A DNA stretch of 64,000 nt, from NCBI GenBank assembly GCA_036476895.1, contig JAZGCJ010000341.1:18114-82113 (forward strand), given 5' to 3'. Below are positions 24,814 to 47,736 of the stretch, piece after piece; within the stretch, counting starts at the first letter, position 1; every line of letters starts with the position of its first letter. The notes beneath the pieces are model-generated. The model searched no databases and was not told the DNA's origin. It was given only the letters and a program-made list of their open reading frames with translations. The stretch is from Thermodesulfobacteriota bacterium. Lineage in GTDB: Bacteria > Desulfobacterota_D > UBA1144 > Nemesobacterales > JAZGCJ01. The position numbers and the translations under genes are program-made.

Positions 24814-26106
24814 TTATTTCAGGTCACGGAGTTTAGCTTGTGAGGGGAATTGTTTGCATATTAATTCCAACATAGTCACAAACATACCTTCGTCTGCGAA
24901 AGTATCCAATGCAAATATGTTTCCATCCGTTGTTAAGCCTGTTTGATAGAATTGCGTAGGCATTAAAACTTTAATAGCCATGTAATTGAAATTCACTAAG
25001 TAGATTCGGCTGATTGTATCTTTTGGTGTATCGTCAGATACAATAATGGGAACACCATCCCAAGTTGCAACATTCAATGCACCTTCCACACCGGGGTTTG
25101 GAGTTTGGATACCACCAAAACCTGGTTGAATGGTTTTAGTATTATCAAAGACCATTTGAGGGGCTCGGAGTTCACCCATTCTTCGATAGGTATCCCATCC
25201 TGTTATTATAGCCCTTGGATGGTTCTTTTTAGTCCATCTACCAGTTTCGGTGAATAGATCATTGATCAGCTTAGGAGTAAGTTCACGGTCTGTACCAGAG
25301 TTGTGATTTACGTGGGCGTTTGACCAGGCATTATTGGCATCACGATCTACTGTTCCGCCAGAACCACCCCAGAGATCTCCATCTCCGGCATCTATACTAA
25401 TCGTAGCATCTGTAACTTCTGAGAAGTTAGTAATCATCCGATCTATTGATTCCATGTTGTTGCCTGCAAGTGTATCTACATCAGTAAAGAAGTGCTCGTT
25501 GAGCAGTTTTTGATGTTCCTCACCAGCTTCCGTTCTCAATTCCTCTAAAGGATTTGTGAACATGTCATCCATACCATTCAAGCCTAATTGCTGTTCTAAT
25601 GCACTTACATTAAAACCATTAGCTACAATTTTTGGTTTTGCAGAGATATCAATCCATTGTTGTTTGACAGTATCAGGCAATGCCGTAGGCAGTTCAGCCT
25701 GTCCTCCAGTATTGGCCGTTGTGGCTCTGGTTGTCATAATTTTGAAACCAGAATGACCCCATGGCATCTTTGGTGTCATACCAAATCCATTTGCTTCTAA
25801 ATTTACAGCTGACCAGACTTCAGCTCCAAAAATAGGATTGAAAGCAGCGGTTGTGGTAGTTAGTAAGGGGGCATCAGCTTTTGCTAAGCCATACAATTGT
25901 GGATAAGATATTCGCATTAAGTCCTCAATTGTTACAATCTTTGCAGATTTTTTGAATGCATGAAGAGCCAGAGCTTCTAAGGTTTCCATTGCATCTCTGC
26001 TCATTTTTTTCCCACCCATTGTTTCTAAGGTAACGGGCAACCCTGATTTTTCAAAGGTAAAGTTAGAAATATGACTATCGTAGGGGCGATCAATGGCTGA
26101 CATCAT
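24814..26106 (-). CDS. major capsid protein (HK97-fold inferred)
   Basis: 430-aa ORF immediately downstream of, and overlapping, the prohead protease/scaffold gene. Size and gene order are typical of HK97-like MCPs. No sequence motif was verified. Confidence 0.55.
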   Translation of the reverse strand: MMSAIDRPYDSHISNFTFEKSGLPVTLETMGGKKMSRDAMETLEALALHAFKKSAKIVTIEDLMRISYPQLYGLAKADAPLLTTTTAAFNPIFGAEVWSAVNLEANGFGMTPKMPWGHSGFKIMTTRATTANTGGQAELPTALPDTVKQQWIDISAKPKIVANGFNVSALEQQLGLNGMDDMFTNPLEELRTEAGEEHQKLLNEHFFTDVDTLAGNNMESIDRMITNFSEVTDATISIDAGDGDLWGGSGGTVDRDANNAWSNAHVNHNSGTDRELTPKLINDLFTETGRWTKKNHPRAIITGWDTYRRMGELRAPQMVFDNTKTIQPGFGGIQTPNPGVEGALNVATWDGVPIIVSDDTPKDTISRIYLVNFNYMAIKVLMPTQFYQTGLTTDGNIFALDTFADEGMFVTMLELICKQFPSQAKLRDLK

Positions 26107-27484: not shown

Positions 27485-29062
27485 TCACTTAATATTGTTC
27501 TTTACAATGCGGTCAATTTCGGCCACTGTAAGCGAATCAATGGCCCGTCTAAAAAAAGGTCGTGGTAATGTTCCGTTTTTTGCAATGGAAAAACGGATTG
27601 CGTTGGCAATCTTTAGAGCTTCTGCATCTCTTGTTTTTCTTTTCCTACCAGTTCCTGTAGATACTTGAACTCGAATCTTTCGCTTAACCCATGCCAGGAT
27701 TGGGTCTAATGGAGGCATGTGAGGTCGTGTGTTCCCACAAAAGGTTGGCTTCCCATTTCGTCTTACATAAAAGTTTCCATTTGAAACAGATAAACAGTAA
27801 ACCTTTCCTGAGTATGGGTAAAGTGAAACAGTTCTTGCATCCACCCACAAACTATTTGATTTCTTAATATATACAGTATAAGAAGGAAAATTACGTTTAT
27901 ACATTTTATTGTTAATACTGAATTCTCCTCTCAAGTCCCTAACTCCTATATAACTCCAAAAACCACACTTTAAGGCCAGTTCTTGAACATCACTGGCTAG
28001 ACCAATACTACTTGTATGGTACCTAGGATAAGAGCCAGAACTTGTTACAGCAGTACTTCCATCACCCACTAATAGTGCTTCAAGTAAACCCTCGGAAAAA
28101 GTTTTATTGTATTGGAGAAATTCCCGAGGAATTCGCTTAAAAGGAGCAAGTTTGTTTAATCCCTTTTTAGCTAACCAACTAACTAATTGAACATTTGAAA
28201 TTCTGAATTTTTTCCCATCGTAAATATATTTAAAAGGTAGTTTATCTAACACATTTTGGATATACAAGCAACCGTCTTGTTTTGTTTGTGATATATTTAA
28301 TCTATAATTTTTGTTAGGATATCGCTTGTCATTTTCAATATTACCTTCACTAATGATCAGTCCCAAAAAGTTTGCAAAGTTCAACGGATTAATTTTGAGT
28401 GTTGGTTTTTCTAAATCTATATACTCTTTCTGTTTCCCTAAGAAATGTTGTTCCATATATTTGTTAATTTCCACATCGATTAGAGAATTGCCTTTCCAGC
28501 TTCCAACAGTGGGTATGTATCCTCTGTATCCTTTTAAGATTGATTTTGCAGGTCTGAAATGTAGATTCTTTTTGTTCCTGTTATACATTAACATACGATG
28601 ATCTGGTGTGACCAACAGATCCAAATACCTATTTTTAAAATGTAATAAATCTCCTGACCAATCTCTCTCTGTTATTTTTTTAGGGTAGCTATATTCTATT
28701 TTACCACTCCTCACATTTAAAGTGCAGACAATATCATTAATTGTACATTTTGTAATTGATTTCCATCCATGTGTTGTTAGAACCTCTGTATCAGCAGAAT
28801 AACATCCAAACTCGATGAACGGGGCATGAAAAGCATCGAAGATAACTTTTTTCTTTAATCTTTTTCGTTCAACTCTTCCAGAACGAGCTAGTGTTCCTCT
28901 ATCAAAAGCACCTTCGCCTATTGCAGGTGAGAAATTAGCGGACCGTAAGTTTTCATCTGCTTCGCTTAGGACAAAATCAGCCATGTCATCTAAGGCTCGG
29001 TCAAGTTGATCTAAGAAATCATCGTAGATTTTTTCAACTGTATCCCCCAAAAGTTTGACCAT
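27485..29062 (-). CDS. HK97 gp10-family virion protein interrupted by an intein with LAGLIDADG homing endonuclease
   Basis: N-extein ends FHAPFIEFG. Intein starts CYSADTEVLTTHGW (block A), has block B LLVTPDHRML and LAGLIDADG-like FLGLIISEGNI and LLEALLVGDGST, and ends VYCLSVSNGNFYVRRNGKPTFCGN. The +1 residue is T, followed by RPHMPPLDPILAW (gp10-family ...YVEFGT..MPA.P.L pattern). Confidence 0.65.
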   Translation of the reverse strand: MVKLLGDTVEKIYDDFLDQLDRALDDMADFVLSEADENLRSANFSPAIGEGAFDRGTLARSGRVERKRLKKKVIFDAFHAPFIEFGCYSADTEVLTTHGWKSITKCTINDIVCTLNVRSGKIEYSYPKKITERDWSGDLLHFKNRYLDLLVTPDHRMLMYNRNKKNLHFRPAKSILKGYRGYIPTVGSWKGNSLIDVEINKYMEQHFLGKQKEYIDLEKPTLKINPLNFANFLGLIISEGNIENDKRYPNKNYRLNISQTKQDGCLYIQNVLDKLPFKYIYDGKKFRISNVQLVSWLAKKGLNKLAPFKRIPREFLQYNKTFSEGLLEALLVGDGSTAVTSSGSYPRYHTSSIGLASDVQELALKCGFWSYIGVRDLRGEFSINNKMYKRNFPSYTVYIKKSNSLWVDARTVSLYPYSGKVYCLSVSNGNFYVRRNGKPTFCGNTRPHMPPLDPILAWVKRKIRVQVSTGTGRKRKTRDAEALKIANAIRFSIAKNGTLPRPFFRRAIDSLTVAEIDRIVKNNIK

Positions 29063-31522: not shown

Positions 31523-33967
31523 TTATACCCGCCTAATGAAGCGAGATCTGCAATTTGGATGAATTAACCAGATTTGTCGGGAGTTTACGGGTGGAGTCCG
31601 CCATTTAGGGCCATTAAATTCGGATTGTACATCATGTGCAATCTGTTTTAACTCATCTAGGGTAATACCTTGTCTGCCATCTTTGGCGGCCTCTACTCTA
31701 CGAACCATTTCAATACACTGAGAACTAGTGCGGTCGTCCCTGCGAATCCTCCACACATATAACAATTCCTCTTCACGTTCTTCTTCTAGGTTTCTGTACC
31801 CGACCTCTCTTCCGGCCAGTACAAATCGCTGGGACTCAGACCTGGCAATTCTTTCAATCCTAAATGTATCAGTGGCAATAATTCCTTGCATAGTCCCGAT
31901 GATTTCATCAAGGCTAGGTTTCTGTCCAGCTTGGAATCCTTCTCTAACAACTTCACGAAGGTCATCACTGATATCCCTAGTAAAATCTGTAAAGGACTCT
32001 ATGAAAGGTTGTTCAGCTTCAAACGCATCGATAGCGTCAGTGTCTTCTGGAGACACACCCCCAAGAATTGAGTCAATAGTTAGATCAGGAGTATCTAAAT
32101 CTTGCTCGCTGGTTTGATTAAATGCTGTGTTTTTACCATACTTAAACATAGCTAATAAGTAACGAAAAACCCAGGTGTTAGTAATTCCTTTGGCCTCTAC
32201 AAGAAATCTATTAAATGCTTCTTCGAGTTGTTCGGGTTCGGGGTTTGGGTCTCTCAGGGCTTCGAGTTCTCTTCTTAGTATGTCTTGCAAATTTACGTTT
32301 ATACGCTGATATAAGTCCGAAGCTAGGATATCGTTTACCGTAGATTTTCTCAGCCACTGAGATTTTTTTTTTTCAATTTCCTCTTCTTGTTCTTCCTCTT
32401 GATCTTGCTCAGGGGCGGTTAGTTGTTGTGGTGGTGGTGGGAAAAACTGATTTTGAGGTCCATTTTCTATTTGTTCTTTTGCCTTGCCCGAAAAGATGAA
32501 ATTACCCTCATCATTGAGTTCTACATCAAATCCCAAATCATGCATTGATTGGGCATTGGAAATTTTAATTGCTTCTCGTTCTAACTCGGCAACCTGATCT
32601 TCTTCTAGGGATAGTGGTAAGACATATTTCCAATCAGTAACATTCATGGCTTCCATGATCTTAGGAAATATAAAATTGTTCCAAATTGCTTGTCCTGACT
32701 CTACAACCCGGTTAGTAACTGTAATTTGTAAACTTTCATTATTCAGCCCTCCACTGGTACTGACATCACCACGTAAGGCGGGTTCTACACCATAATAACC
32801 ACCAATGCGATCTGCAAATTCCTTTCGTGTTTCCATATATTGCATTTCATCAAGAGAACTATCAAAGCGGATAAATTCAGGTTTGTTGTCTCCTGTTGTG
32901 GGGTCATAAGCAAAAACGGGTTTGTATTGATTATCATCTCTGACCTTTTCTCTCCAATCATCCCACATGTCCCTGACAGCTTCACGATTGTTTGATGGGA
33001 AGACCATTAATCCGCTTGGAATTTCTCTATAAACATAATAATCAGAAACATAGTTTATTTGTGACATTAAGGTTAGCATGTAGGGCCAACCAGTTAGAAT
33101 GGGGCTGTATCCATATAATCTCCCTTTCCTATATTTCTGTGTGTGGATAACCTCGCCTTTGATGAATGCCTGTGAAGGGGTTTTTCCACCATCCATAGTT
33201 TCAATATAATGGACGGGATAAAGCTCATGACTTCCACAATGAGAACAGGCATCTGGACTGTCAGCAGTTGTAATGAATTGTCGATGGATTAAACAGGTCT
33301 TATGAACAGAACCGATTTCTTGTCTTTCAGACGCAGAGACACGCATGAGGGATGGATCGGCCCGATAAACTTCTTTTAGTAAGTGTCCAAGTTCATCAAC
33401 ATCTGGGTCTCCATTTTCGCTTTTGCGTTTAGTAATAACATATCCTTTAATTAGAACAATATATATGTCATCGGCAATTTGAAAGTCATCCTCTCCAGCT
33501 CTGCCAACCTCTCGGAGTGATTCACCATTTTCATTGGCTAATTTCATTAATCCTTCGGATAGCAGTTTTTGATCGTGGTCAGGAGGACGAATATTCCCAG
33601 TTTCACAGTTTGGACAGGTGAACCCTTCATTGTTAAACTTAAAGTCTGATATTTTGTCAGCAGTTGCTTCAACTACTTTGTTGCGAAATTCTCTTTCGCA
33701 TTGATCACATTTACCCCAAAAATTTGCTTCTAATTCAATTTCTTTCCTCCAAATTTGATTTCCAAGCTCTCTTATACAGGTTCTTGTTACAATCTCTTGA
33801 TCCGCCATTGCATAGATGTCTTGGTAAGATCTGGGGATCAGAGGCAGCTGTATGCCTGATGGTTGTCGGTGAGGAAAAGGAGGTAAAGGTGGTCGGGCCT
33901 CTGTTTTAGTCTCAGTGTTCTTTTGTTTGCCTAAGATTAAATTTGCGAGACTAGACCTTAAATTCAT
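31523..33967 (-). CDS. portal protein fused to C-terminal MuF/SPP1-gp7-like minor head domain
   Basis: 814 aa. Central region ...ADRIGGYYGVEPALRGDVSTSGGLNNESLQITV... is portal-like. C-terminal domain ends ...RQIWLIHPNCRSRFIRRV (the HPNCRC signature of Phage_Mu_F). N-terminal zinc ribbons (CDQCE..CPNCE, CSHCGSH). Confidence 0.5.
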   Translation of the reverse strand: MNLRSSLANLILGKQKNTETKTEARPPLPPFPHRQPSGIQLPLIPRSYQDIYAMADQEIVTRTCIRELGNQIWRKEIELEANFWGKCDQCEREFRNKVVEATADKISDFKFNNEGFTCPNCETGNIRPPDHDQKLLSEGLMKLANENGESLREVGRAGEDDFQIADDIYIVLIKGYVITKRKSENGDPDVDELGHLLKEVYRADPSLMRVSASERQEIGSVHKTCLIHRQFITTADSPDACSHCGSHELYPVHYIETMDGGKTPSQAFIKGEVIHTQKYRKGRLYGYSPILTGWPYMLTLMSQINYVSDYYVYREIPSGLMVFPSNNREAVRDMWDDWREKVRDDNQYKPVFAYDPTTGDNKPEFIRFDSSLDEMQYMETRKEFADRIGGYYGVEPALRGDVSTSGGLNNESLQITVTNRVVESGQAIWNNFIFPKIMEAMNVTDWKYVLPLSLEEDQVAELEREAIKISNAQSMHDLGFDVELNDEGNFIFSGKAKEQIENGPQNQFFPPPPQQLTAPEQDQEEEQEEEIEKKKSQWLRKSTVNDILASDLYQRINVNLQDILRRELEALRDPNPEPEQLEEAFNRFLVEAKGITNTWVFRYLLAMFKYGKNTAFNQTSEQDLDTPDLTIDSILGGVSPEDTDAIDAFEAEQPFIESFTDFTRDISDDLREVVREGFQAGQKPSLDEIIGTMQGIIATDTFRIERIARSESQRFVLAGREVGYRNLEEEREEELLYVWRIRRDDRTSSQCIEMVRRVEAAKDGRQGITLDELKQIAHDVQSEFNGPKWRTPPVNSRQIWLIHPNCRSRFIRRV

Positions 33968-39956: not shown

Positions 39957-39963
39957 TTTTTTC

Positions 39964-39999
39964 CGGAGTTAAACCATTCGTGGTTTGACTCCTTTTTTT
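39964..39999 (+). terminator. intrinsic terminator (12-bp stem with UUCG tetraloop, T8)
   Basis: GGAGTTAAACCA-TTCG-TGGTTTGACTCC followed by TTTTTTTT. Confidence 0.65.
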
Positions 40000-40009
40000 T
40001 GGCCTTAGC

Positions 40010-40339
40010 TTAGCTTGTGATAGCTTTCCTGGATATGTTGATATCTAAATTTTCAATTCGGACAACCGTAGAATCGAGAAAGACAATCTTTAATTGGGAT
40101 TTGAAGTTTCCATCACCACCGGAAAAGTCGCCTGACGCTGGAGTATAATTACATTTGCCATTTACTGCATCTGTAATAGTACACGCCTTGCTAAATAGTA
40201 GGGTCGTGAAATCTTCATCAAACACAAAAAATGTAATGGTTGTGTCTGTTATATCCACAACACTATCATCATTTGCGTCCTTAATTACAAAGTCTATGCC
40301 TTCTTTAGTATTTTCTTCAATGAAATCGAGTGCAACCAT
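40010..40339 (-). CDS. small β-rich protein downstream of giant fibre gene
   Basis: 109 aa, Asp/Thr/Phe-rich. Confidence 0.35.
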   Translation of the reverse strand: MVALDFIEENTKEGIDFVIKDANDDSVVDITDTTITFFVFDEDFTTLLFSKACTITDAVNGKCNYTPASGDFSGGDGNFKSQLKIVFLDSTVVRIENLDINISRKAITS

Positions 40340-40343
40340 GTTA

Positions 40344-43300
40344 TTACCTCACTGTAGCATCAAATGTATAATCTTTAGTTTTCTTAGCAGTAAATGTATA
40401 TTGAACAGATTTAGTAGCAGTAAATGTATATTGAACAGATTTAGTAGCATCGAATGTGAACGCAATTGTCTTTGTTGGTTCACAAGTAAATTTAATTGTT
40501 TTGGTAGCATCAAAAGTTAAGTCTCCAATGGCAACAATCTCCACTTCTCGAGAAAGTGTCCTGGAGGCTTGTGCATCTTGCTGCACAACACGACTGACAG
40601 ATCGGCTCGCCCGAGCCTCGTTCTGGATTTCTCTGAATAGGCTAATTGAGGCACGTGCTTCGTTTTGGATGGCCCTCGAAACCGATCTACTGGCCCTCGT
40701 TTCCTGTTTCACAATTCTAGTCAAAGATCGACTATTACGTGCCTGAGCTTGTGTCATACGGCTAATTGTTTGACTAACTCTGGTTTCCTGTTGAATCTCC
40801 CTTGAAACTGTCCTTGATTTACGGTCTTCCATCTCTGGAGTTCTGGTTATGCTGCGGGATGCTCTTGCTTCCTGCTGAACCTGTCGAGATACAGTAACAC
40901 TATTACGTGCCTCTTTCTGCACTTCTCGTAACAAGGATCTGGAAGCCCTTGCAGTCAGGATAACTTCACGACTTATTATTCTTGAATCTCGTGCATCTTG
41001 TTGAACCTGTCTTTGGACGGATCTTGATGCCTTAGCTTCCTGTTGTGCAGTTCGGGTTAAACTCCTTGAGGCTAATGCTACAATAATAACCTCTCTGGAT
41101 ACTGTTCTTGATGCCCTTGCATCTTGTTGAACTATTCGGTGAACAGATCGTGAAGCTCGTGCTTCTTGTTGTACAATTCTTGTCAGACTTCTACTAGCAC
41201 GAGCCTCGGACTGTACCACTCTATGAACTGAACGAGAATCCCTTGCAGTTCCAATAACCTCTCTGCTTATTGTTCGGCTAGCTCTGGCCTCCTGTTGAAT
41301 TACTCTCGAAACAGACCGACTGGCTCTTGCCTCACTCTGTACAACTCTATGTAGCGATCTTGACGCTCGTGCTTCTTGGAGTACATTTCGTGTGACGCTT
41401 CTACTCGCACGATCATCCTGTTGAACGACTCGGTGAACTGATCGAGATGCCTGTGCATCCTGTTGGATTTCCCTGGATATGGTTCGACTATTACGTGCCT
41501 CTTGTTCGACTATTCTGTGAACTGAACGACTAACTCTGGCCTCAGCCTGGGTTTTCCTTGATATCGTCCTACTCGCACGGGCCTCCTGTTTTACTTCTCT
41601 TGTAACACTTCTTGAGGCTCTGGCTTCCTGTTTTACAACTCTTGTGACTGATCTGCTAGCCCTTGATTCCTGTTGAACCTGTCTGCTCACTGATCTGCTA
41701 GCCCTTGCCTCAGACTGTACTATTCGATGAATTGACTTACTAACTCGGGTCTCTTGCTTTACAACCCTGTGAACAGACCTGCTAGCACGGGCTTCCGCTG
41801 ATCCTGCACTTCTCGTCACAGATATGCTCTGTCTTGCTTCTTGTTGAACTTCTCGGCTTATGGTACGTGAGGCCCTGGCAGAATTAACAGTTTCTCGTGA
41901 CACAGTTCTTGATACACGAGCTTCTTGTTCCACTATTCGGTGAACAGACCTGCTAATTCGGCCCTCATCTTTGATGGTACGAGCTAGTCCCCTACTAACC
42001 AAAACAAGACATTCTGGTAATCCAAGCGTGTGAAAGGTCGAAGGACTATTTTGATTATTATATTCAGATAAAATCCATCCCGCAGTATGGACTATATCAG
42101 AAATCCGAATTTCATCCATAATTGCATTAACGGCTTGACTAGCATGAGATACAAGAAACGGATCTGAATTAGCGAGACTACTATCTACTTCGTCCATATT
42201 ATCATTATTATCCTCAACTCCATTTTCATAAATCCTTAATAAAGCTGGTATTCTATCAACTTGACCAACAAAATAAATCCATATCCCTGTTGTTGGTATT
42301 GGAACTCTTGATGTATCCTGAGTATCTCCATCAGCATCTTCTACCTCAAACTTCATTCCGTTAACAAGAGAAGTAAGATTAAAAGAATATCCAGCATTAC
42401 CAGCAAATTCTCCTTTGTCAATAGGTCGTCTTGGCCCCCCTCCCGAATTAAAATTAATCCACATAGAAACAGTTAAATCTAAAGCAAAGTCTAAATGCCC
42501 ATCCCCGGGATCTCCCATACTAACTTGCCCATTAAATCCATCAAAATTATAAGCATCCCCAATTTTACCAGTCGATCCTTGTGTTGTACCTCCAGATATA
42601 ATCCCGTCTGTATTATGAATAGTAGAATCTTTAGCATTACCAGATGCTTCTTGGAAGTGCCAAACTCCTTTATAATTGGAATTCCAAGTTCCTGGTTTGT
42701 TTTGTTGGTCAGTTGCCCCAGAATTGTTATAATACATATAGATGTCTGTATCTATGGAACCGCTAATGAAAGGAAGGTTTACCCAAGCAATCAACTCTCC
42801 TGTGCCAGTGACATATAGCACACGTTCGTGATTAAGTTTTGTCACACCATCGGAGGATGTAAAGAGAATATCAAATCCATCTGACCGTGCATCATCCGAT
42901 AGGTTAGCATCGCTAGTTAATCTAATGAGTACGGGAAAATCAACTAAATTCTCGGCAATCTTAGTAGAGTCGATGGTGACTTTCTTTCGGCAAATCCAAT
43001 CATTATCAAACCATTGAACTGCAGGTGCTACCGTCCTTGACAAGGGACGACTAGCTCTGGTCACTTGTTCTATAGTCCTTGTTAAAGATCTGGATGCACG
43101 TGTCTCTTGCTGTACTTGTCTGGATAGAGATCTGCTCACACGAGCTTGATCGAGTACTTTTCTTGTAATTGATCTACTAGCCCGTGCAGTAAAAACAACT
43201 TCCCTGGATATTGTCCTACTAACTCTGGTATCCTTTTGAACAATCCGGTGAACACTTCTTGAGGCTTGAGCATCCTGTTCTACTTCTCTGGATAGGTGTC

Positions 43301-44672
43301 TTGACGCTCGTGCTTGATCAGTCATTGTTCTTGTGACTGATCGTGAGGCTTGGTCAGAGTTAATAGCCTCTCTGCTGATGGTACGGGAAACCCTTGTTTC
43401 CTGTTGAACCACTCGATGAACAGAACGACTATCTCTAGTTACCTGTTCAACCGTTCTTGATAAGGATCTGGATGCCCTTGCGGATTGTTGTTGTTCAAAT
43501 TCAATTACGAAGAACGTTCTATTTCTGGCTGTATCGGCAGTGGCAACCTCGTCATTCCCGAGATCCTCCCACTGGAAGCTAAATGTGGTCGATGCGGTTA
43601 TCCCTGTTTTTGCCCAAATTTGGCAAAGCCCCGTCACTTCGTGATCATGATCTACAAACGTAGTGAGTTCAGATCCCTCTCTTGTACCTGCTACGGCTAT
43701 TCTATATTGGGTAGTACTTTCAGCGGAGCCACCAGTCGCATTTGACGGATTAAAGTTAGCTACAATTAAATGAATGGCATTTGAGGCATTAGGGGTATAA
43801 GTCCCTGTCATGCCAGTCATATCGGCATAACTGACCGGGGATGTGGCAGACGAGGTAAGATTGACATCAACTTTTAAAACTGCATTACTTTTAATTTCTA
43901 CAATTTGAAAGGTTCGCAGTCTGCCGGTATCTACACTTGTAGTCTGCCCTTCTCTTGTCTGCCATTGTAATTCAAATCCATGACTTCCTGATATTCCATC
44001 AAGAATGTGCATTCCAGACCATCCCGGCCCCTCATCAATTTCGTCCTTAAATACACTGGTAATTGCTCCCTCTTTAGTGCCATCTACAGAGAATTGAAAA
44101 TCCGCAGTGTCGTCTGAAGAATCTGATAAATCAATTGGCACATTTGCAATCATTAAAAGAACACTACCAGTTCCTGCAACAGAGATACTGCTAGCACTAA
44201 ACAGATTACCCCACGTACTTGGGGAGGCTGCTGCCCCAGTTGAGGATTGGTTTACTAGAATACTAGCGTCCCCATCTGTAATTTCAATGACTTGGAGTGA
44301 CTGCTCTCGAGCAGTGTCCATGTTCGCATCAGATATTACATCTTGCCATTCACATTTAAAACTATTAGATGATCCTGATAGCCCAGTAACCGCAAACATT
44401 ATAGTCATAGGATGAACACCCCCTACTGAGTGAATGTTATCCGTAAATGCAGTAACTACAGGGCTCCCAGTGGCAGACCCATTGACACTGATTCTGAATT
44501 CGGCAGTTGCATCCCCCTCATCCTTTAAAGGAACTTGAGCAATTATAAGTAATACGCTACTGGTATTCTTTACAGTGATACCACTTGCTGTCAAACCTGG
44601 GACAATACCCCACGTAGCAGGGGCAGTACCTGAACTTAAAGAGGTTATATCAACCAGTAGATTTGAAGGCAT
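40344..44672 (-). CDS. giant fibre-like structural protein with about 50 tandem Arg/Ser-rich 14-aa repeats flanking a LamG/concanavalin-like domain
   Basis: 1442 aa. Repeat unit about RASRSVxRxVQQEA (42-nt DNA periodicity) in two blocks. Central domain ...FDGFNGQVSMGDPGDGHLDFALDLTVSMWINFNSGG... is LamG-like. N-terminal β-rich Ig-like region. C-terminus has short 10-aa repeats (TKSVQYTFTA) encoded by 30-nt tandem DNA repeats at 40380-40450. Confidence 0.6.
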   Translation of the reverse strand: MPSNLLVDITSLSSGTAPATWGIVPGLTASGITVKNTSSVLLIIAQVPLKDEGDATAEFRISVNGSATGSPVVTAFTDNIHSVGGVHPMTIMFAVTGLSGSSNSFKCEWQDVISDANMDTAREQSLQVIEITDGDASILVNQSSTGAAASPSTWGNLFSASSISVAGTGSVLLMIANVPIDLSDSSDDTADFQFSVDGTKEGAITSVFKDEIDEGPGWSGMHILDGISGSHGFELQWQTREGQTTSVDTGRLRTFQIVEIKSNAVLKVDVNLTSSATSPVSYADMTGMTGTYTPNASNAIHLIVANFNPSNATGGSAESTTQYRIAVAGTREGSELTTFVDHDHEVTGLCQIWAKTGITASTTFSFQWEDLGNDEVATADTARNRTFFVIEFEQQQSARASRSLSRTVEQVTRDSRSVHRVVQQETRVSRTISREAINSDQASRSVTRTMTDQARASRHLSREVEQDAQASRSVHRIVQKDTRVSRTISREVVFTARASRSITRKVLDQARVSRSLSRQVQQETRASRSLTRTIEQVTRASRPLSRTVAPAVQWFDNDWICRKKVTIDSTKIAENLVDFPVLIRLTSDANLSDDARSDGFDILFTSSDGVTKLNHERVLYVTGTGELIAWVNLPFISGSIDTDIYMYYNNSGATDQQNKPGTWNSNYKGVWHFQEASGNAKDSTIHNTDGIISGGTTQGSTGKIGDAYNFDGFNGQVSMGDPGDGHLDFALDLTVSMWINFNSGGGPRRPIDKGEFAGNAGYSFNLTSLVNGMKFEVEDADGDTQDTSRVPIPTTGIWIYFVGQVDRIPALLRIYENGVEDNNDNMDEVDSSLANSDPFLVSHASQAVNAIMDEIRISDIVHTAGWILSEYNNQNSPSTFHTLGLPECLVLVSRGLARTIKDEGRISRSVHRIVEQEARVSRTVSRETVNSARASRTISREVQQEARQSISVTRSAGSAEARASRSVHRVVKQETRVSKSIHRIVQSEARASRSVSRQVQQESRASRSVTRVVKQEARASRSVTREVKQEARASRTISRKTQAEARVSRSVHRIVEQEARNSRTISREIQQDAQASRSVHRVVQQDDRASRSVTRNVLQEARASRSLHRVVQSEARASRSVSRVIQQEARASRTISREVIGTARDSRSVHRVVQSEARASRSLTRIVQQEARASRSVHRIVQQDARASRTVSREVIIVALASRSLTRTAQQEAKASRSVQRQVQQDARDSRIISREVILTARASRSLLREVQKEARNSVTVSRQVQQEARASRSITRTPEMEDRKSRTVSREIQQETRVSQTISRMTQAQARNSRSLTRIVKQETRASRSVSRAIQNEARASISLFREIQNEARASRSVSRVVQQDAQASRTLSREVEIVAIGDLTFDATKTIKFTCEPTKTIAFTFDATKSVQYTFTATKSVQYTFTAKKTKDYTFDATVR

Positions 44673-44683
44673 TCACCAGTTTC

Positions 44684-45109
44684 CTAAACGATGACTGACC
44701 CAGTTATATCAGATGATGTGAAGTTGCCAGGAGAAGTTTCCTCAATTTGAACCCATTCTTCCCCACTTACAGGAGTTTTAATCACACGGCAGATCGCCAG
44801 GGGTTTTCTAGATTTTTGAATTGTCCCTATCCAACCTTGTGTCACATGGATAAAATCATCTACCTTTCTTCGGAAAATAGTTGATAGGACATCCCCCATA
44901 TAAGCGGCAACTTCTTGTCCGCCCACACCTTCTTTAAACACTGTGAAATTAATTTCATGTTGTTCGGCTATGTTATTTAGCCGTAGTAAAACGCCACTGA
45001 GTTTATAGACTTTGAGATCATCCCCAAGGTTTCTCTCAAATGTCTCTGTATTTCGTCCTAAAAATAGGGTACCAATTTCTGCTAATAATGTTGCTTTAGT
45101 TAGTGCCAA
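44684..45109 (-). CDS. hypothetical virion-associated protein
   Basis: 141 aa, directly upstream of the giant fibre gene. Confidence 0.35.
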   Translation of the reverse strand: MALTKATLLAEIGTLFLGRNTETFERNLGDDLKVYKLSGVLLRLNNIAEQHEINFTVFKEGVGGQEVAAYMGDVLSTIFRRKVDDFIHVTQGWIGTIQKSRKPLAICRVIKTPVSGEEWVQIEETSPGNFTSSDITGSVIV

Positions 45110-45824
45110 GAGTTATTTCCTCGTTGTTTTGTGTCAAACGAGGAGGATAACCCTGACCGTCTATACCTGTGACCGTTCCGCCAATGACTTGCCCAGTAAA
45201 CTCATCTTTAATGGGTGTACACTTCTGTCCATCCAGAGAGAAGTGGTCATAGCCTATGCGTTTATCAAATATGTTTTCTTCAGCAAACTCCACCCCAGTA
45301 CTAAACTTAAATGGATGAACAACCAATTTATCAATTAATCCCTCAATTTGTTTATGATCATCCTTAGTTTTCAAAATCTTCTTTAAACTATACATTGAAT
45401 CGATAATATTTCCCCGATGATGAACCTGTTCCACAAACTTTTGATTATCCAGTTCAATGCTTAAGGCATCACCATCTTCATTATAACAAAAACCAATCCG
45501 TTCTGAGTCAAAGGGAATTTTTGGCATTCTTGGGCCCATTAGTCCCTGCCGTCCTGCTTTGATGTGATAAAAAAAGCCTTGGGCTAAGCCCGGCACTGTT
45601 TCCCCATTTTTGGAAACTTTAATCTTCCGAGTAATGGTGTATTTTGAACCTTTCAAGTGCAACCGAAGAGCAATGATATCAGCTCTTGTGGTTTTATCTA
45701 TATCATAAAAGGCTTTAATTGTTTTAGAAGTAAGTGTTCGTCCATCACTAAGATTAGCTGACCATGTAGCCGGCTCCAGGATTTTATACATGGCGTTCAT
45801 TATTCTGGAAGTAGGATGACTCAA
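45096..45824 (-). CDS. hypothetical structural protein
   Basis: 242 aa. Positional. Confidence 0.4.
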   Translation of the reverse strand: MSHPTSRIMNAMYKILEPATWSANLSDGRTLTSKTIKAFYDIDKTTRADIIALRLHLKGSKYTITRKIKVSKNGETVPGLAQGFFYHIKAGRQGLMGPRMPKIPFDSERIGFCYNEDGDALSIELDNQKFVEQVHHRGNIIDSMYSLKKILKTKDDHKQIEGLIDKLVVHPFKFSTGVEFAEENIFDKRIGYDHFSLDGQKCTPIKDEFTGQVIGGTVTGIDGQGYPPRLTQNNEEITLGTN

Positions 45825-45953: not shown

Positions 45954-47075
45954 ATGAAAAAAATTGGCCTCTCAATTATCGTTTCTGACAGGCATGAAGA
46001 ATTAGACAGAGCTATTCAGTCAGCCGAAGGGCTTTATGATTATCTGTCGATTACCTTGGTCCATGCAAAGGGTTTGGACTTAAAACAAACCGAAGAAGTA
46101 GCCAGGAAGTATAATGCCATTATTAGTCACTATCACACAGATGAAAAATGGAAGCATTCCTTTATTGATGATTTTGGGGCAGCCCGTAATATAGCATGGC
46201 AAGGGCTTCCAGAAGACTGCACTTGGGTTTTTCTTATGGATTCCGATGATATCCTTAAAGATCCAAAAGATGCACGTAAGATGATTTTGAAATATGAACC
46301 TAATTTTGTTATATTTGTTCGTATAAACAACTTACTAGCTCATGGATCATTCCTGCAACAACGGATCTGGATGCGTGGCACTGCCAGGTTTAAGGACCGC
46401 ATTCATGAAACTCTAGTTTACAATAAAAAACTCATTAAAGATTATGTAGAAACTAAAATTGTCATAGTACATGATTCTAAAACACAAGAGGACAGTGGTA
46501 AGAGAAATTTTATTATTCTTAAAGATGTAGTCGGGAATGGGCAAGCAAGCAACCGAATTTTGTTCCATTATTATGAAAAAGTTTATATTCAAGAAATAAA
46601 AAAGGAACGTGCATTATCTACAAGAATGAGGAAGGCTATTAAGCAATTTTCGTTATTGACAAAAAAGAAAGATGTCAGCCCTCAACAACGATTCCGTTGT
46701 CACTACTTTATGGCCGATTTTTATTCGATGAAAGCCAGGGAAGAAAAAGGTACCTTTGAGTCTGCAATTGCACATATTATGGAATGTCTTAAAATTGAAA
46801 TTGACAAGGCAGATCCTTATTTTTTAATGGGTCGTTTGTTATATGCCTCAGGTCGATTTCAAGAGTCAATTTTGTGGCTCAACATTGCCATTGGTCTCCC
46901 GAATCACTTGACTTATTGGCATGATATCAAAGAATTCCGTACTTCAATGCCCCATGCACAATTGGCCCTGTGCTACAAGGCTTTGAATAAACCCAAAGAG
47001 GCTGTACAACATCATGCCTTAGCTCGGGCTTATGATAAAAAATTTGAAAAATATGACGGTACTTATTTCAGGTAA
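45954..47075 (+). CDS. family 2 glycosyltransferase with C-terminal TPR-like repeats
   Basis: 373 aa. N-terminal GT-A signature GLSIIVSDRHEEL...DSDD (DxD). C-terminal helical repeats ...AIAHIMECLKIE...GRLLYASGRFQESILWLNIAIG...ALCYKALNKPKEAVQHHALARAYD. Confidence 0.55.
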   Translation: MKKIGLSIIVSDRHEELDRAIQSAEGLYDYLSITLVHAKGLDLKQTEEVARKYNAIISHYHTDEKWKHSFIDDFGAARNIAWQGLPEDCTWVFLMDSDDILKDPKDARKMILKYEPNFVIFVRINNLLAHGSFLQQRIWMRGTARFKDRIHETLVYNKKLIKDYVETKIVIVHDSKTQEDSGKRNFIILKDVVGNGQASNRILFHYYEKVYIQEIKKERALSTRMRKAIKQFSLLTKKKDVSPQQRFRCHYFMADFYSMKAREEKGTFESAIAHIMECLKIEIDKADPYFLMGRLLYASGRFQESILWLNIAIGLPNHLTYWHDIKEFRTSMPHAQLALCYKALNKPKEAVQHHALARAYDKKFEKYDGTYFR

Positions 47076-47736
47076 AGAAAAATCGATATGTCAGCTCCAC
47101 CGTTTCTACTCCTGCTGTGCTATCATCCATAACGAATAAGTGAATCGCAATCCGATTCTGATTCCCTGCTGACAAAGCAGTTGTGAACGTGATTTTCCGA
47201 GTATCACCTTGTAGCTGGTAGGTTGTGGTTTGAGCCGTCTGGCTTTGGTAAGCCGCCGGCATTGATCCCGCTCCAGCTCCAGGAGTGACATTACTGGAGG
47301 TTTCAACAGCTCTAAGTTGAGAGTGAACGCCTAAGGCAGATGCACCACCATCAAGGATCTCTTTGGTTGTAGCATTAAAACTAGTATCATCCCATGCCTC
47401 TAATTCTGCAGCCTGAGTTTCGGGGTTCGTATCTGCCTGAATAGCTAGGACATTTGTGTTTGTAGGATTACTAGCAAACATGTCCACCGTGAATGAGTCG
47501 GTTTCTTGTCCACCGGCATCATACAGCGTAATTTCGGCATCTGTGCCTTTATCTATCCATAATTCATCAGCAATTCGGACTACATCACCACCAGACGGAA
47601 CTGGAATTGGTTTTAAATTTCCCGCTGTACTACCCGCCCCGGTAAATGTAATCGTTTCTGCTGCAAGAATGTCTGTCCATGTAGGAGATGCTTCTGTATT
47701 GGAATTGTATTTAAACACAATGGTAGGTGATGCCAC
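47068..47736 (-). CDS. hypothetical β-rich virion protein
   Basis: 222 aa, Thr/Ala/Gly/Ser-rich. Downstream of the terminase gene. Confidence 0.35.
   Translation of the reverse strand: MASPTIVFKYNSNTEASPTWTDILAAETITFTGAGSTAGNLKPIPVPSGGDVVRIADELWIDKGTDAEITLYDAGGQETDSFTVDMFASNPTNTNVLAIQADTNPETQAAELEAWDDTSFNATTKEILDGGASALGVHSQLRAVETSSNVTPGAGAGSMPAAYQSQTAQTTTYQLQGDTRKITFTTALSAGNQNRIAIHLFVMDDSTAGVETVELTYRFFFT

What the first reader, a model, noticed from the sequence alone, without database searches (positions are those of the whole stretch)
40344..44672. Giant 1442-aa fibre-like protein built from about 50 tandem 14-residue Arg/Ser-rich repeats around a LamG-like domain
Two long blocks (about 40540-42000 and 43010-43490, 42-nt periodicity) encode repeats of the form RASRSVxRxVQQEA, for example ARASRSVHRVVQQDD / RASRSVTRNVLQEA / RASRSLHRVVQSEA. 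Hydrophobic residues recur at heptad-compatible spacing, so a very long coiled-coil or β-solenoid stalk is plausible. The blocks flank a concanavalin/LamG-like globular domain (FDGFNGQVSMGDPGDG...WINFNSGG). The N-terminus is Ig-like and β-rich. The C-terminus carries further short repeats encoded by exact 30-nt tandem DNA repeats (40380-40450). The high Arg content gives an unusually basic fibre. The near-identical 42-nt units would promote recombinational length variation. The gene lies in a second structural cluster next to a GT2 glycosyltransferase and the terminase, not in the tail module, so it may be a head fibre or host-adhesion fibre.
Basis: seen in the sequence. Interest (0 to 1): 0.6.

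Follow-up and report, generated by a model that had tools for sequence, protein, structure and literature searches.

The report
Viral fibre with single-chain C1q-like head
This 1442-residue protein of an uncultured, probably archaeal, tailed virus is a modular adhesion fibre: three fused C1q/TNF-like domains form a ready-made "trimer" head in one chain, joined to a long arginine-rich repeat stalk that carries a lectin-like knob.

The parts
40344..44672 (-). Fibre gene, 1442 aa (stop codon 40344-40346)
   Evidence: ORF list. An identical protein is in NCBI as MEE9215693.1, 'MAG: DUF2341 domain-containing protein'.
43488..44672 (-). N-terminal head, aa 1-395: three tandem homologous jelly-roll domains (about aa 1-131, 132-260, 261-395) packed as a pseudo-trimer
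43014..43475 (-). Stalk block 1, aa 400-553: 11 x 14-aa Arg/Ser units (pI 12.0)
   Evidence: AF2 models aa 455-540 as one helix with pLDDT 58-90, while aa 399-458 is below 50.
41958..43013 (-). Central globular insert, aa 554-905: DUF2341 (aa 598-683, nt 42624-42881) followed by a LamG/ConA-like domain (about aa 712-868, nt 42069-42539)
   Evidence: Pfam DUF2341, 32.5 bits against a cut-off of 23.4. BLASTP to P0003: 3e-47 / 2e-37 / 9e-32, covering its Laminin_G_3 at residues 116-279. Foldseek matches ConA-like lectin domains.
40527..41957 (-). Stalk block 2, aa 906-1382: 34 x 14-aa units (one of 15 aa), pI 12.0, net +54
   Evidence: AF2 gave no confident structure here (pLDDT 21-30).
40347..40526 (-). 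C-terminal cap, aa 1383-1442: six 10-aa repeats of the form T-F-x-A-T-K-S-V-Q-Y, encoded by 30-nt tandem repeats with one exact duplicate
   Evidence: TRF.
47068..47736 (-). Cassette partner, 222-aa all-beta protein of unknown function
   Evidence: 55 % identity to L003 and L005 genes. A family of 40 clusters at 49-75 % identity and constant length. It lies in the same cassette in L027 and L028.
45954..47075 (+). Glycosyltransferase-TPR gene on the opposite strand, inside the cassette
   Evidence: PHROG beta-1,4-glycosyltransferase E 2.8e-12, plus sub-threshold TPR hits. 39 % identity over the full length to the L028 gene at the same place and orientation.
45096..45824 (-). Cassette partner, 242 aa, unknown function
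   Evidence: 34-36 % identity to L003 and L005 and 28-29 % to L027 and L028 neighbours.
44684..45109 (-). 141-aa gene immediately upstream of the fibre gene; similar-sized genes (140-148 aa) precede family members elsewhere, but no sequence similarity was detected
40010..40339 (-). 109-aa gene immediately downstream; conserved partner of the Arg/Ser-stalk fibres in L003 and L005
   Evidence: 37-39 % identity. jackhmmer finds it only in L003 and L005. Weak phrog_1084 hit.

Best explanation
The gene encodes a virion-associated adhesion fibre of an uncultured tailed virus, probably one that infects archaea. It is built from exchangeable modules, in this order:
1. An N-terminal head in which three fused C1q/TNF-type jelly-rolls form a pseudo-threefold 'trimer' within a single chain.
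2. A stalk of about 23 nm made of 11 Arg/Ser 14-residue units.
3. A DUF2341 + LamG lectin-like knob.
4. A stalk of about 70 nm made of 34 more units.
5. A short beta-repeat C-terminal cap.

The stalk is most likely alpha-helical with a heptad-type (14/4 = 3.5) hydrophobic stripe (positions 2/5/9/12) and outward-facing arginines (positions 3/7/14). That would make it a coiled-coil-type rod. The acidic head and the lectin-like knob are the ligand-binding parts, and would capture cell-surface glycans or S-layer glycoprotein reversibly. The highly basic stalk acts as a long spacer and may add electrostatic affinity for acidic envelopes.

The fibre belongs to a mobile cassette (222-aa, 242-aa and 109-aa partners, plus or minus a glycosyltransferase) that moves between otherwise unrelated viruses.

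Shown: the anatomy, the fold of the head, the domain homologies, protein-level conservation of the repeats, the cassette synteny and the family distribution.

Inferred: the helical or coiled-coil nature of the stalk, the adhesion function and virion association. Which end is on the virion is also inferred; I favour a distal N-terminal head because stand-alone heads exist in tail modules.
For: - Stalk: period-3.5 hydrophobicity takes 42-59 % of the power in all six Arg/Ser-stalk proteins, with G+P at or below 3 %. AF2 builds a helix at aa 455-540. The units are selected at the protein level: DNA identity is 50 %, and Ser uses AGY and TCN codons equally, 22 each.
- Knob: DUF2341 and LamG homology. 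DUF2341 proteins are inferred pilus-tip adhesins in archaea (PMC4858521).
- Modularity: the same head is joined to 14-, 20- and 21-23-aa repeats or stands alone. The same stalk is joined to other heads and C-termini in L027 and L028. A split version exists in L005.
- Virion association: PHROG tail-fibre hits on the repeats, E 6e-12. Family members lie after the tape measure and baseplate-size genes (L004), just before the tail-tube gene (L027 and L028), and in SU10-like podovirus tail modules. The protein has no signal peptide.
- Archaeal virus: capsid, portal and PolB hit only or best haloarchaeal and methanogen tailed viruses, and the gene order matches HVTV-1.
Against: - AF2 gave no confident structure for block 2 (pLDDT 21-30) or for the first four units of block 1.
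- The stalk composition (V, I, T, S rich; Leu only 2.7 %) also suits beta structure. Core positions would include Ser and Glu, which is unusual for a stable coiled coil.
- A single-chain head removes the usual reason for a trimeric stalk, so the oligomeric state is open.
- No homologue has been characterised experimentally, and no proteomic or imaging evidence exists for virion incorporation.
- In this window the gene lies between terminase and portal, not with the tail genes.
- One family member (P0020) sits in a 272-kb, apparently cellular, glycosyltransferase-rich locus, and another (P0032) has an N-terminal signal/TM segment.
- TerL's best hits are bacterial phages, and the NCBI record is binned as Thermodesulfobacteriota.
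Confidence: 0.6

Rival explanations
1. Head fibre or capsid decoration. The pseudo-trimeric N-terminal head docks on threefold or quasi-threefold sites of the HK97-type capsid, as trimeric decoration proteins and the phi29 gp8.5 base do. The C-terminal stalk then projects outward as a head fibre that mediates head-first reversible adsorption.
For: - In this window the gene lies in the terminase-portal region, not in the tail module.
- The N-terminal module is the conserved part of the family and the C-terminal parts vary. This is the usual signature of a virion anchor.
- A cassette that moves between viruses with unrelated tails would be easier to accommodate on a generic capsid lattice.
- The archaeal tailed virus HFTV1 adsorbs head-first, and head fibres are known in other phages (PMC9973310; phi29).
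Against: - Most other family contexts are in or next to tail genes.
- Both termini of a C1q-type domain lie at the base, so a stalk leaving a capsid-bound head needs an awkward path (inference from the fold).
- Every characterised C1q/TNF-like viral or bacterial fibre domain that matched is a distal tip.
- The stand-alone 410-aa heads would be decoration proteins encoded in podovirus tail modules, which is atypical.
Confidence: 0.2
2. The stalk is not a coiled coil. It would be a beta-structured rod (a triple beta-helix or beta-spiral-like, or a narrow beta-roll), or a monomeric element that lies along another periodic virion structure.
For: - The composition is rich in beta-branched and small polar residues (V 12 %, I 5.5 %, T 7 %, S 16.5 %) with little Leu.
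- The core motif S-R-x-phi-x-R-x-phi alternates as a strand would.
- There is a secondary power peak at period 2.0.
- AF2 failed on block 2.
- Other 14-aa repeat types attached to the same head (P0004, P0005, P0027) have beta-like periodicities of 2.0 and 2.8.
- Single-chain heads arose in two sequence families on this stalk. This hints that the chain ends are not brought together in threes.
Against: - G+P is about 1 % and there is no Asn/Gly turn signal. Known beta-spirals, beta-rolls and beta-helices need turn residues every 5-8 positions (established knowledge).
- The dominant power is at 3.5, not at 2.0-2.3, in all six stalk proteins.
- AF2 predicts a continuous helix with pLDDT up to about 90 where it is confident.
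- As a helix, the Arg stripe and the hydrophobic stripe separate cleanly.
Confidence: 0.25
3. Assembly artefact or a decaying pseudogene made of collapsed or expanded repeats.
For: Long tandem repeats in short-read metagenome assemblies are a known source of errors (general knowledge). No second near-identical sequence with which to compare copy number was found.
Against: - The units are only 50 % identical at the DNA level, with no exact repeat longer than 19 nt in block 2, so they assemble unambiguously.
- The reading frame is intact over 4.3 kb.
- Register and invariant residues are maintained through synonymous and codon-family changes.
- Five independent contigs carry the same repeat type, with 21-39 motif matches each or 23-43 in-register units.
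- The identical protein occurs on two contigs.
Confidence: 0.02

Closest known systems
C1q/TNF-like headed trimeric fibres: Bacillus BclA (1wck), Bdellovibrio MAT fibre tips (8okw, 8ol4; PMC10769870), PRD1 P5 (1yq5), complement C1q
   Different: In those fibres the head is C-terminal and is made by three chains, each contributing one domain, on a trimeric collagen-like or coiled-coil stalk. Here all three domains are in one chain, at the N-terminus. There is no Pfam C1q, TNF or BclA_C sequence signature, and the stalk is a new Arg/Ser 14-mer.
Engineered single-chain trimers (scC1q 5hzf, single-chain adiponectin 4dou, single-chain APRIL-BAFF-BAFF 4zch, single-chain Cbln1 5kca)
   Same: Best structural matches: about 330 residues superpose at 2.6-3.0 A, so the domain order and pseudo-threefold packing are the same.
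Phage phi29 head fibre gp8.5
   Same: It has an N-terminal beta-domain base with pseudo-symmetry and a repetitive helical stem, and serves as an accessory adhesion fibre.
   Different: gp8.5 is a homotrimer of 280 aa with a helix-turn-helix supercoil stem and a pseudo-hexagonal base. There is no sequence match to it or to any other PDB chain, and the stalk units here have no turn residues.
Adenovirus / reovirus triple beta-spiral shafts (about 15-residue repeats) and T4 fibritin-type trimeric coiled coils (own knowledge)
   Same: They are long viral fibres built from short tandem repeats of similar period. In fibritin the repeats are heptad-based helices.
   Different: Beta-spiral repeats need a conserved Gly/Pro turn, which is absent here (G+P 1 %). 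Fibritin has Leu-rich heptads and a C-terminal foldon. Here the core would be Ser/Val/Val/Glu, with three Arg per 14 residues.
DUF2341 + Laminin_G_3 surface proteins (for example large proteins in archaeal type IV pilus loci, PMC4858521; P0003 and P0011-P0014 here)
   Same: The central insert is homologous, at 30-34 % identity over about 330 aa.
   Different: Those are cellular multi-domain surface proteins, often with several DUF2341-LamG copies. Here a single copy is spliced into the middle of a viral fibre stalk.

Membership tests
C1q/TNF-like jelly-roll superfamily | Compact ten-strand jelly-roll beta-sandwich fold | tested here: met
C1q/TNF-like jelly-roll superfamily | Three domains packed around a threefold axis | tested here: met
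C1q/TNF-like jelly-roll superfamily | Sequence signature (Pfam C1q, TNF or BclA_C) | tested here: not met
   No Pfam hit to aa 1-395 at E up to 1 and no PDB sequence hit. The different head of L027 reaches BclA_C only below threshold, 33.7 bits against 38.
DUF2341 (PF10102) | Pfam HMM above the gathering score | tested here: met
   32.5-34 bits against 23.4, at aa 598-683.
Laminin_G_3 / ConA-like lectin (PF13385) | Pfam HMM match | tested here: not met
   No direct hit even at E up to 10.
Laminin_G_3 / ConA-like lectin (PF13385) | Homology to bona fide members, and the fold | tested here: met
   BLASTP E 9e-32 to P0003 residues 1-299, which contain Laminin_G_3 at 116-279. Foldseek hits to ConA-like lectin domains at E about 2e-5, from a low-confidence model.
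Alpha-helical coiled coil | Heptad (3.5-residue) hydrophobic periodicity without helix breakers | tested here: met
   Power share of 0.42-0.59 at period 3.5 in six stalk proteins, with G+P at or below 3 %.
Alpha-helical coiled coil | Helical secondary structure and oligomeric bundle | tested here: inconclusive
   AF2 builds a helix at aa 455-540 (pLDDT 58-90) but gives no confident structure for aa 399-458 or for block 2.
Triple beta-spiral (adenovirus/reovirus shaft) | About 15-residue repeat with a conserved Gly/Pro turn and alternating hydrophobics | tested here: not met
   The period is 14, G+P is 1 %, and the dominant period is 3.5.
Collagen-like stalk (BclA/C1q type) | G-X-Y triplets | tested here: not met
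   Gly is 0.3 % of the repeat region.
Phage tail fibre (PHROG 24159 / 1419) | Profile match outside low-complexity repeats, and tail-module location | tested here: inconclusive
   The hits (E 6e-12 and 7e-6) fall only on the repeat region. In this window the gene is outside the tail module; in relatives it is inside or adjacent.
Archaeal tailed viruses (Thumleimavirales / Druskaviridae-like) | Hallmark genes closest to archaeal tailed viruses, with the same gene order | tested here: met
   MCP is 33-35 % identical (E 5e-42) and portal 28-30 % identical. Only archaeal-virus records match for these two. PolB's best hits are Halorubrum viruses. The layout is as in HVTV-1. TerL is not diagnostic. 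The host was not identified.

The most novel reading that the evidence does not exclude
The fibre would be a new architectural class, a 'one-chain' viral fibre with reversed polarity. The N-terminal single-chain pseudo-trimeric C1q-like head is the distal receptor binder, and its three diverged faces give an asymmetric binding site that a homotrimer cannot have. It is carried on a non-trimeric Arg/Ser helical rod of a fold not yet described. The rod is anchored through its C-terminal end by cassette-encoded adaptors, so the whole adhesion device can hop between unrelated archaeal and bacterial viruses.
Probability: 0.3. Interest if true: 0.75.

Novelty: new variant of a known kind. Interest (0 to 1): 0.6.

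Why it matters
C1q/TNF-family heads are the textbook case of obligate trimers, and protein engineers had to fuse them artificially to obtain single-chain versions. A natural, diverged single-chain version in viruses shows that evolution reached the same solution. It offers a scaffold with three non-equivalent faces, and it uncouples head symmetry from stalk symmetry.

The Arg/Ser 14-mer stalk is an uncharacterised repeat rod about 95 nm long if helical. It is conserved at the protein level despite scrambled DNA.

The cassette is shared by viruses with unrelated capsids and tails. It is a compact example of host-range hardware moving horizontally, probably among viruses of uncultured sediment archaea, whose adsorption mechanisms are almost unknown.

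Tried and rejected
- tblastn of the whole protein and of the 222-aa partner against 50,697 phage records: no match.
- phmmer against all PDB sequences: no match.
- NCBIfam on the fibre, the cassette partners and the tail-tip genes: nothing useful.
- PHROG and Pfam on the L003, L027 and L028 neighbours: almost nothing beyond the tail tube.
- AF2 of aa 540-1442 with a 9-sequence alignment: mean pLDDT 38, so it is uninformative for block 2 and the C-terminal cap.
- hhalign of a single-domain profile of the head against the L027 head, the L028 head and the 222-aa protein: not significant.
- Scan of the 185,579 GTDB species genomes: the run with the alignment failed and the run with the single protein found nothing.
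- The afdb50 fold library was unavailable.
- Cluster look-up for copy-number variants: none available.
- Idea rejected: that the 222/242/141-aa genes are the virus's own head-tail connector set. The window has a separate set of similar-sized genes between the capsid and tube genes (one search compared).
- Idea rejected: a strict 42-residue super-repeat. Autocorrelation is equal at lags 14, 28 and 42, and by reading the unit list the 'TISRE' subtype units recur at irregular intervals.
- Rejected: SAH-type single helix (no i/i+4 E-R/K pattern), collagen and beta-spiral.


Full report
OBSERVATION. The ORF 40344-44672 (minus strand) is intact and encodes 1442 aa. Anchoring on the S-R motif shows units exactly 14 residues apart. 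There are 11 units at aa 400-553 and 34 at aa 906-1382, with one 15-residue unit, which makes 45 units rather than about 50. The consensus is A-S-R-S-[VLI]-x-R-x-V-Q-Q-E-A-R. S2 and R7 are invariant in 44 of 44 units; R3 occurs in 40 of 44 and R14 in 36 of 44. The repeat region is 19 % Arg, 16.5 % Ser and 12 % Val, with only 0.3 % Gly and 0.5 % Pro. Its net charge is +72 and both blocks have pI about 12. The N-terminal and central globular parts are acidic (pI 4.3 and 4.4), so the whole protein is only net +23. The last 60 residues are six 10-residue repeats (TFDATKSVQY-like) encoded by a 30-nt tandem repeat, with one exact duplicate at 40390-40449.

The 42-nt units are not near-identical. Their mean pairwise identity is 50 % and the maximum is 81 %. 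No pair reaches 90 %, and the longest exact repeat within block 2 is 19 nt. TRF detects only a two-copy 42-nt array at 80 %. The invariant Ser is encoded 22 times by AGY and 22 times by TCN, and the invariant Arg residues use both AGR and CGN codons. The periodicity is therefore old and is maintained by selection on the protein. It is a poor substrate for homologous slippage and is unlikely to be an assembly artefact.

THE FAMILY OF THE HEAD. An exhaustive phmmer search of 1.84 billion representatives finds only 154 proteins at E up to 1e-3, and 98 at E up to 1e-30. The module sits at residues 1 to about 390 in almost all of them. What follows it varies widely:
- nothing, in stand-alone proteins of about 400-420 aa;
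- an 80-aa beta domain, in proteins of about 470 aa;
- tandem repeats of quite different sequence and period. These are 14 aa in P0002, P0004, P0005, P0008 and P0027; 14/15 aa in P0006; 20 aa in P0007, P0044 and many IMG/VR loci; and 21-23 aa in P0009 and L022.

In L005 the head protein (472 aa) is separate from two downstream proteins that carry the Arg/Ser units. One member (P0020) lies in a 272-kb contig among glycosyltransferases, methyltransferases, a Vps4-like ATPase and deoxyhypusine synthase, a neighbourhood that looks cellular and archaeal. Another member (P0032) has an N-terminal hydrophobic segment.

THE ARG/SER STALK. The same unit type occurs in P0002 (L003), P0010, L005_1080, L005_777 and L003_1065. 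It also occurs in the large proteins of L027 (1229 aa, about 42 units of FSRQVTRTVEQTxN) and L028 (724 aa, about 27 units of ESRTLTRTVQxxDR). The universal core is S2-R3-x-[VLI]5-x-R7-x-[VI]9. In all six proteins the per-position hydrophobicity profile has 42-59 % of its power at period 3.5, and G+P is at or below 3 %. On a helix this places positions 2/9 (a) and 5/12 (d) on one stripe and the arginines 3, 7 and 14 on the opposite, outer face. AF2 models aa 455-540 as one continuous helix (pLDDT 58-90) but is unconfident for aa 399-458. In a second job with a shallow alignment it gives no structure for block 2 (pLDDT 21-30). I therefore regard an alpha-helical, coiled-coil-type rod as the best-supported reading, at about 65 %. 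That would be about 23 nm plus about 71 nm at 0.15 nm per residue. It is not proven. The composition (Val/Ile/Thr/Ser rich, Leu 2.7 %) and a would-be Ser/Glu half of the core keep a beta alternative open. Other 14-residue repeats attached to the same head (P0004, P0005, P0027) have beta-like periodicities, so '14' is not one fold across the family. A recurrent subtype unit, SR-T-I-S-R-E-V-(I/V)-x-T, is conserved between the window protein and P0002/P0010 and may mark local discontinuities.

THE CENTRAL INSERT. Residues 598-683 match Pfam DUF2341 above threshold. The whole insert aligns three times with the DUF2341-LamG units of P0003 (E 3e-47, 2e-37, 9e-32). The third alignment covers the stretch where Pfam places Laminin_G_3 in P0003, at residues 116-279. 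The window sequence itself does not reach Pfam Laminin_G_3. The partly confident model (DUF2341 part at pLDDT 74-87) finds ConA-like lectin domains by Foldseek, namely the trans-sialidase lectin domain, AbnA domain 4 and BoNT Hc-N. DUF2341 proteins have been proposed as pilus-tip adhesins in archaea (PMC4858521). P0010 and L005_1080 carry a different globular insert between two runs of the same units. The stalk thus acts as a carrier for exchangeable knobs.

THE CASSETTE AND ITS CONTEXT. Four window genes travel together.
- The 222-aa protein (47068-47736) is 55 % identical to its L003 and L005 counterparts and belongs to a tight family of 40 clusters at 49-75 % identity.
- The 242-aa protein (45096-45824) is 28-36 % identical to counterparts in L003, L005, L027 and L028.
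- The fibre itself is the third gene.
- The 109-aa protein (40010-40339) is 37-39 % identical to its L003 and L005 counterparts.
- The glycosyltransferase-TPR gene on the opposite strand (45954-47075) is 39 % identical to a gene at the same place and orientation in L028.

The remaining genes of those contigs show no similarity to the window's genes, except the tail tube and one neighbour in L027. The cassette is therefore mobile. Its position differs between contigs. It lies between TerL and portal here. It lies directly upstream of the tail-tube gene (Pfam Phage_tube_2) and tape measure in L027 and L028. It lies after large tail-size genes and before TerS/TerL in L003 and L005. Other family members lie seven genes after a PhageMin_Tail tape measure (L004), before a Gp77-family gene (L025 and L026), or in the tail module of SU10-like podovirus contigs (stand-alone heads P0043 and P0050). 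In L027 the fibre's C-terminal globular domain is 56 % identical to the free-standing 162-aa product of the next gene, which itself starts with one stalk unit. L027's own head is a different sequence family that is probably also three tandem C1q-like domains (BclA_C 33.7 bits; a1-a2 E 1e-8; a2-a3 E 0.02).

THE VIRUS. The window's major capsid protein matches only archaeal tailed viruses among 50,697 phage records: HVTV-1, HCTV-1 and HCTV-5 at 33-35 % identity (E 5e-42), plus a Methanofastidiosa virus. The portal matches only the same haloarchaeal viruses and two Methanomassiliicoccales viruses. The family-B DNA polymerase is closest to Halorubrum tailed viruses. The order TerL - portal - ... 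- MCP - about seven small genes - tube - chaperones - about 480-aa tape measure mirrors HVTV-1 of the Druskaviridae. TerL is not diagnostic. The NCBI label 'Thermodesulfobacteriota MAG' is therefore probably a binning artefact, and the host is probably an archaeon. The host was not identified. Relatives come from sediment metagenomes.

HOW IT MOST LIKELY WORKS. Shown: a single polypeptide strings together a pre-formed pseudo-trimeric C1q-like head, a repeat rod, a lectin-like knob, a longer rod and a small beta-repeat cap. The pieces are swapped among relatives, and the gene rides in a mobile late-gene cassette. Inferred: it is a virion fibre that enlarges the capture radius and binds envelope glycans or S-layer glycoprotein reversibly through the head and the DUF2341-LamG knob, with the basic rod acting as spacer.

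Polarity is unresolved. The conserved N-terminal position suggests an anchor. Three observations instead favour a distal head and a proximal C-terminus, which I put at about 60 %:
- stand-alone heads exist in tail modules;
- all characterised C1q-like fibre domains that matched are distal binders;
- heads vary among the closest cassette relatives.

Oligomeric state is also unresolved. A single-chain head removes the need for a trimeric stalk, and such heads arose on this stalk in two sequence families. That argues either for a non-trimeric rod or for selection of an asymmetric binding surface.

RIVALS. The rivals considered are:
- a head fibre anchored by the pseudo-trimer on capsid threefold sites, supported by the window context and the precedent of head-first adsorption in HFTV1;
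- a beta-structured stalk;
- an assembly artefact, rejected on the DNA divergence.

COMPARISON AND NOVELTY. The protein works like the C1q/TNF-headed fibres (BclA, Bdellovibrio MAT fibres, PRD1 P5). It differs in having the trimer in one chain, in the position of the head, in the stalk chemistry and in the mid-stalk lectin insert. It meets the fold criteria of the C1q/TNF superfamily but not the sequence-signature criteria. It is a bona fide DUF2341 member and a LamG relative by transitive homology. I class it as a new variant of a known kind. The single-chain head and the Arg/Ser rod are the parts that a specialist would find surprising.

Noticed in passing
window 24814-26106, 31523-33967, 1109-3487 (whole window): The capsid, portal and family-B polymerase genes have their only or best isolate relatives among archaeal tailed viruses (Haloarcula HVTV-1/HCTV-1/5, Halorubrum viruses, and Methanomassiliicoccales and Methanofastidiosa viruses). 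The gene order matches Druskaviridae. The NCBI source record is nevertheless labelled a Thermodesulfobacteriota MAG, which is probably a mis-binned archaeal virus contig of 88 kb.
   Followed up: partly
window 45954-47075 (+); L028 10676-11797 (-): A 373-aa glycosyltransferase-TPR gene sits on the opposite strand inside the fibre cassette. It is conserved (39 % identity over the full length) at the same position and orientation in L028. L005 has a methyltransferase in the cassette, and P0020 lies in a glycosyltransferase-rich locus. This may mean the Ser/Thr-rich fibre is glycosylated, but that was not tested.
   Followed up: partly
window 31523-33967 (-): The portal ORF is 814 aa. Residues 24-484 match portal profiles, and residues about 647-810 match 'head morphogenesis / minor head protein' profiles (phrog_3517, phrog_115). 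This looks like a portal fused to an SPP1 gp7 / Mu F-like domain.
   Followed up: no
window 27485-29062 (-): A 525-aa ORF in the head module gives a patchwork of weak hits (thymidylate synthase, ribonucleotide reductase, PhoH-like, Neck1), each over a short stretch. It may be a mobile element such as an intein or homing endonuclease, or a composite protein.
   Followed up: no
L027 11663-15352 and 15364-15852: The 1229-aa Arg/Ser-stalk fibre of L027 ends in a 148-aa globular domain that is 56 % identical to the next gene's 162-aa product. That product begins with a single stalk unit. A long form and a short form thus share one terminal domain, which suggests co-assembly into one structure.
   Followed up: partly
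L001 10001-11410 (P0020) and P0032: Two members of the head family look cellular rather than viral. P0020 is in a 272-kb contig next to a Vps4-like ATPase, deoxyhypusine synthase, an exosortase-like gene and many glycosyltransferases. P0032 has an N-terminal hydrophobic signal/TM segment.
   Followed up: no
L005 10001-16996; P0004/P0005/P0006/P0009: A conserved linker motif, Y-L-R-S-D-x-D-K-G-E...D-L-R-L-R-S-x-x-D-K, follows the 80-aa beta domain in fused fibres. It forms the N-terminus of the separate stalk proteins in split versions (L005_1080, P0010). It is probably the joint between the head protein and the stalk protein.
   Followed up: no
window 39957-40010: A convergent gene pair (the 109-aa gene on the minus strand and a 259-aa HTH-like gene on the plus strand) is separated by about 50 nt. 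That spacer contains an inverted repeat, GGAGTCAAACC...GGTTTAACTCC, flanked by A/T runs. It is probably a bidirectional terminator that ends the fibre operon.
   Followed up: no
window 40155-40520, 42495-42818, 43485-43745, 44107-44415 (+): Plus-strand ORFs of 86-121 aa overlap the fibre gene. The one at 44107-44415 has 'homologues' antisense to the head-coding regions of L001, L004, L008 and L009, so these are shadow ORFs of a conserved coding strand, not genes.
   Followed up: yes
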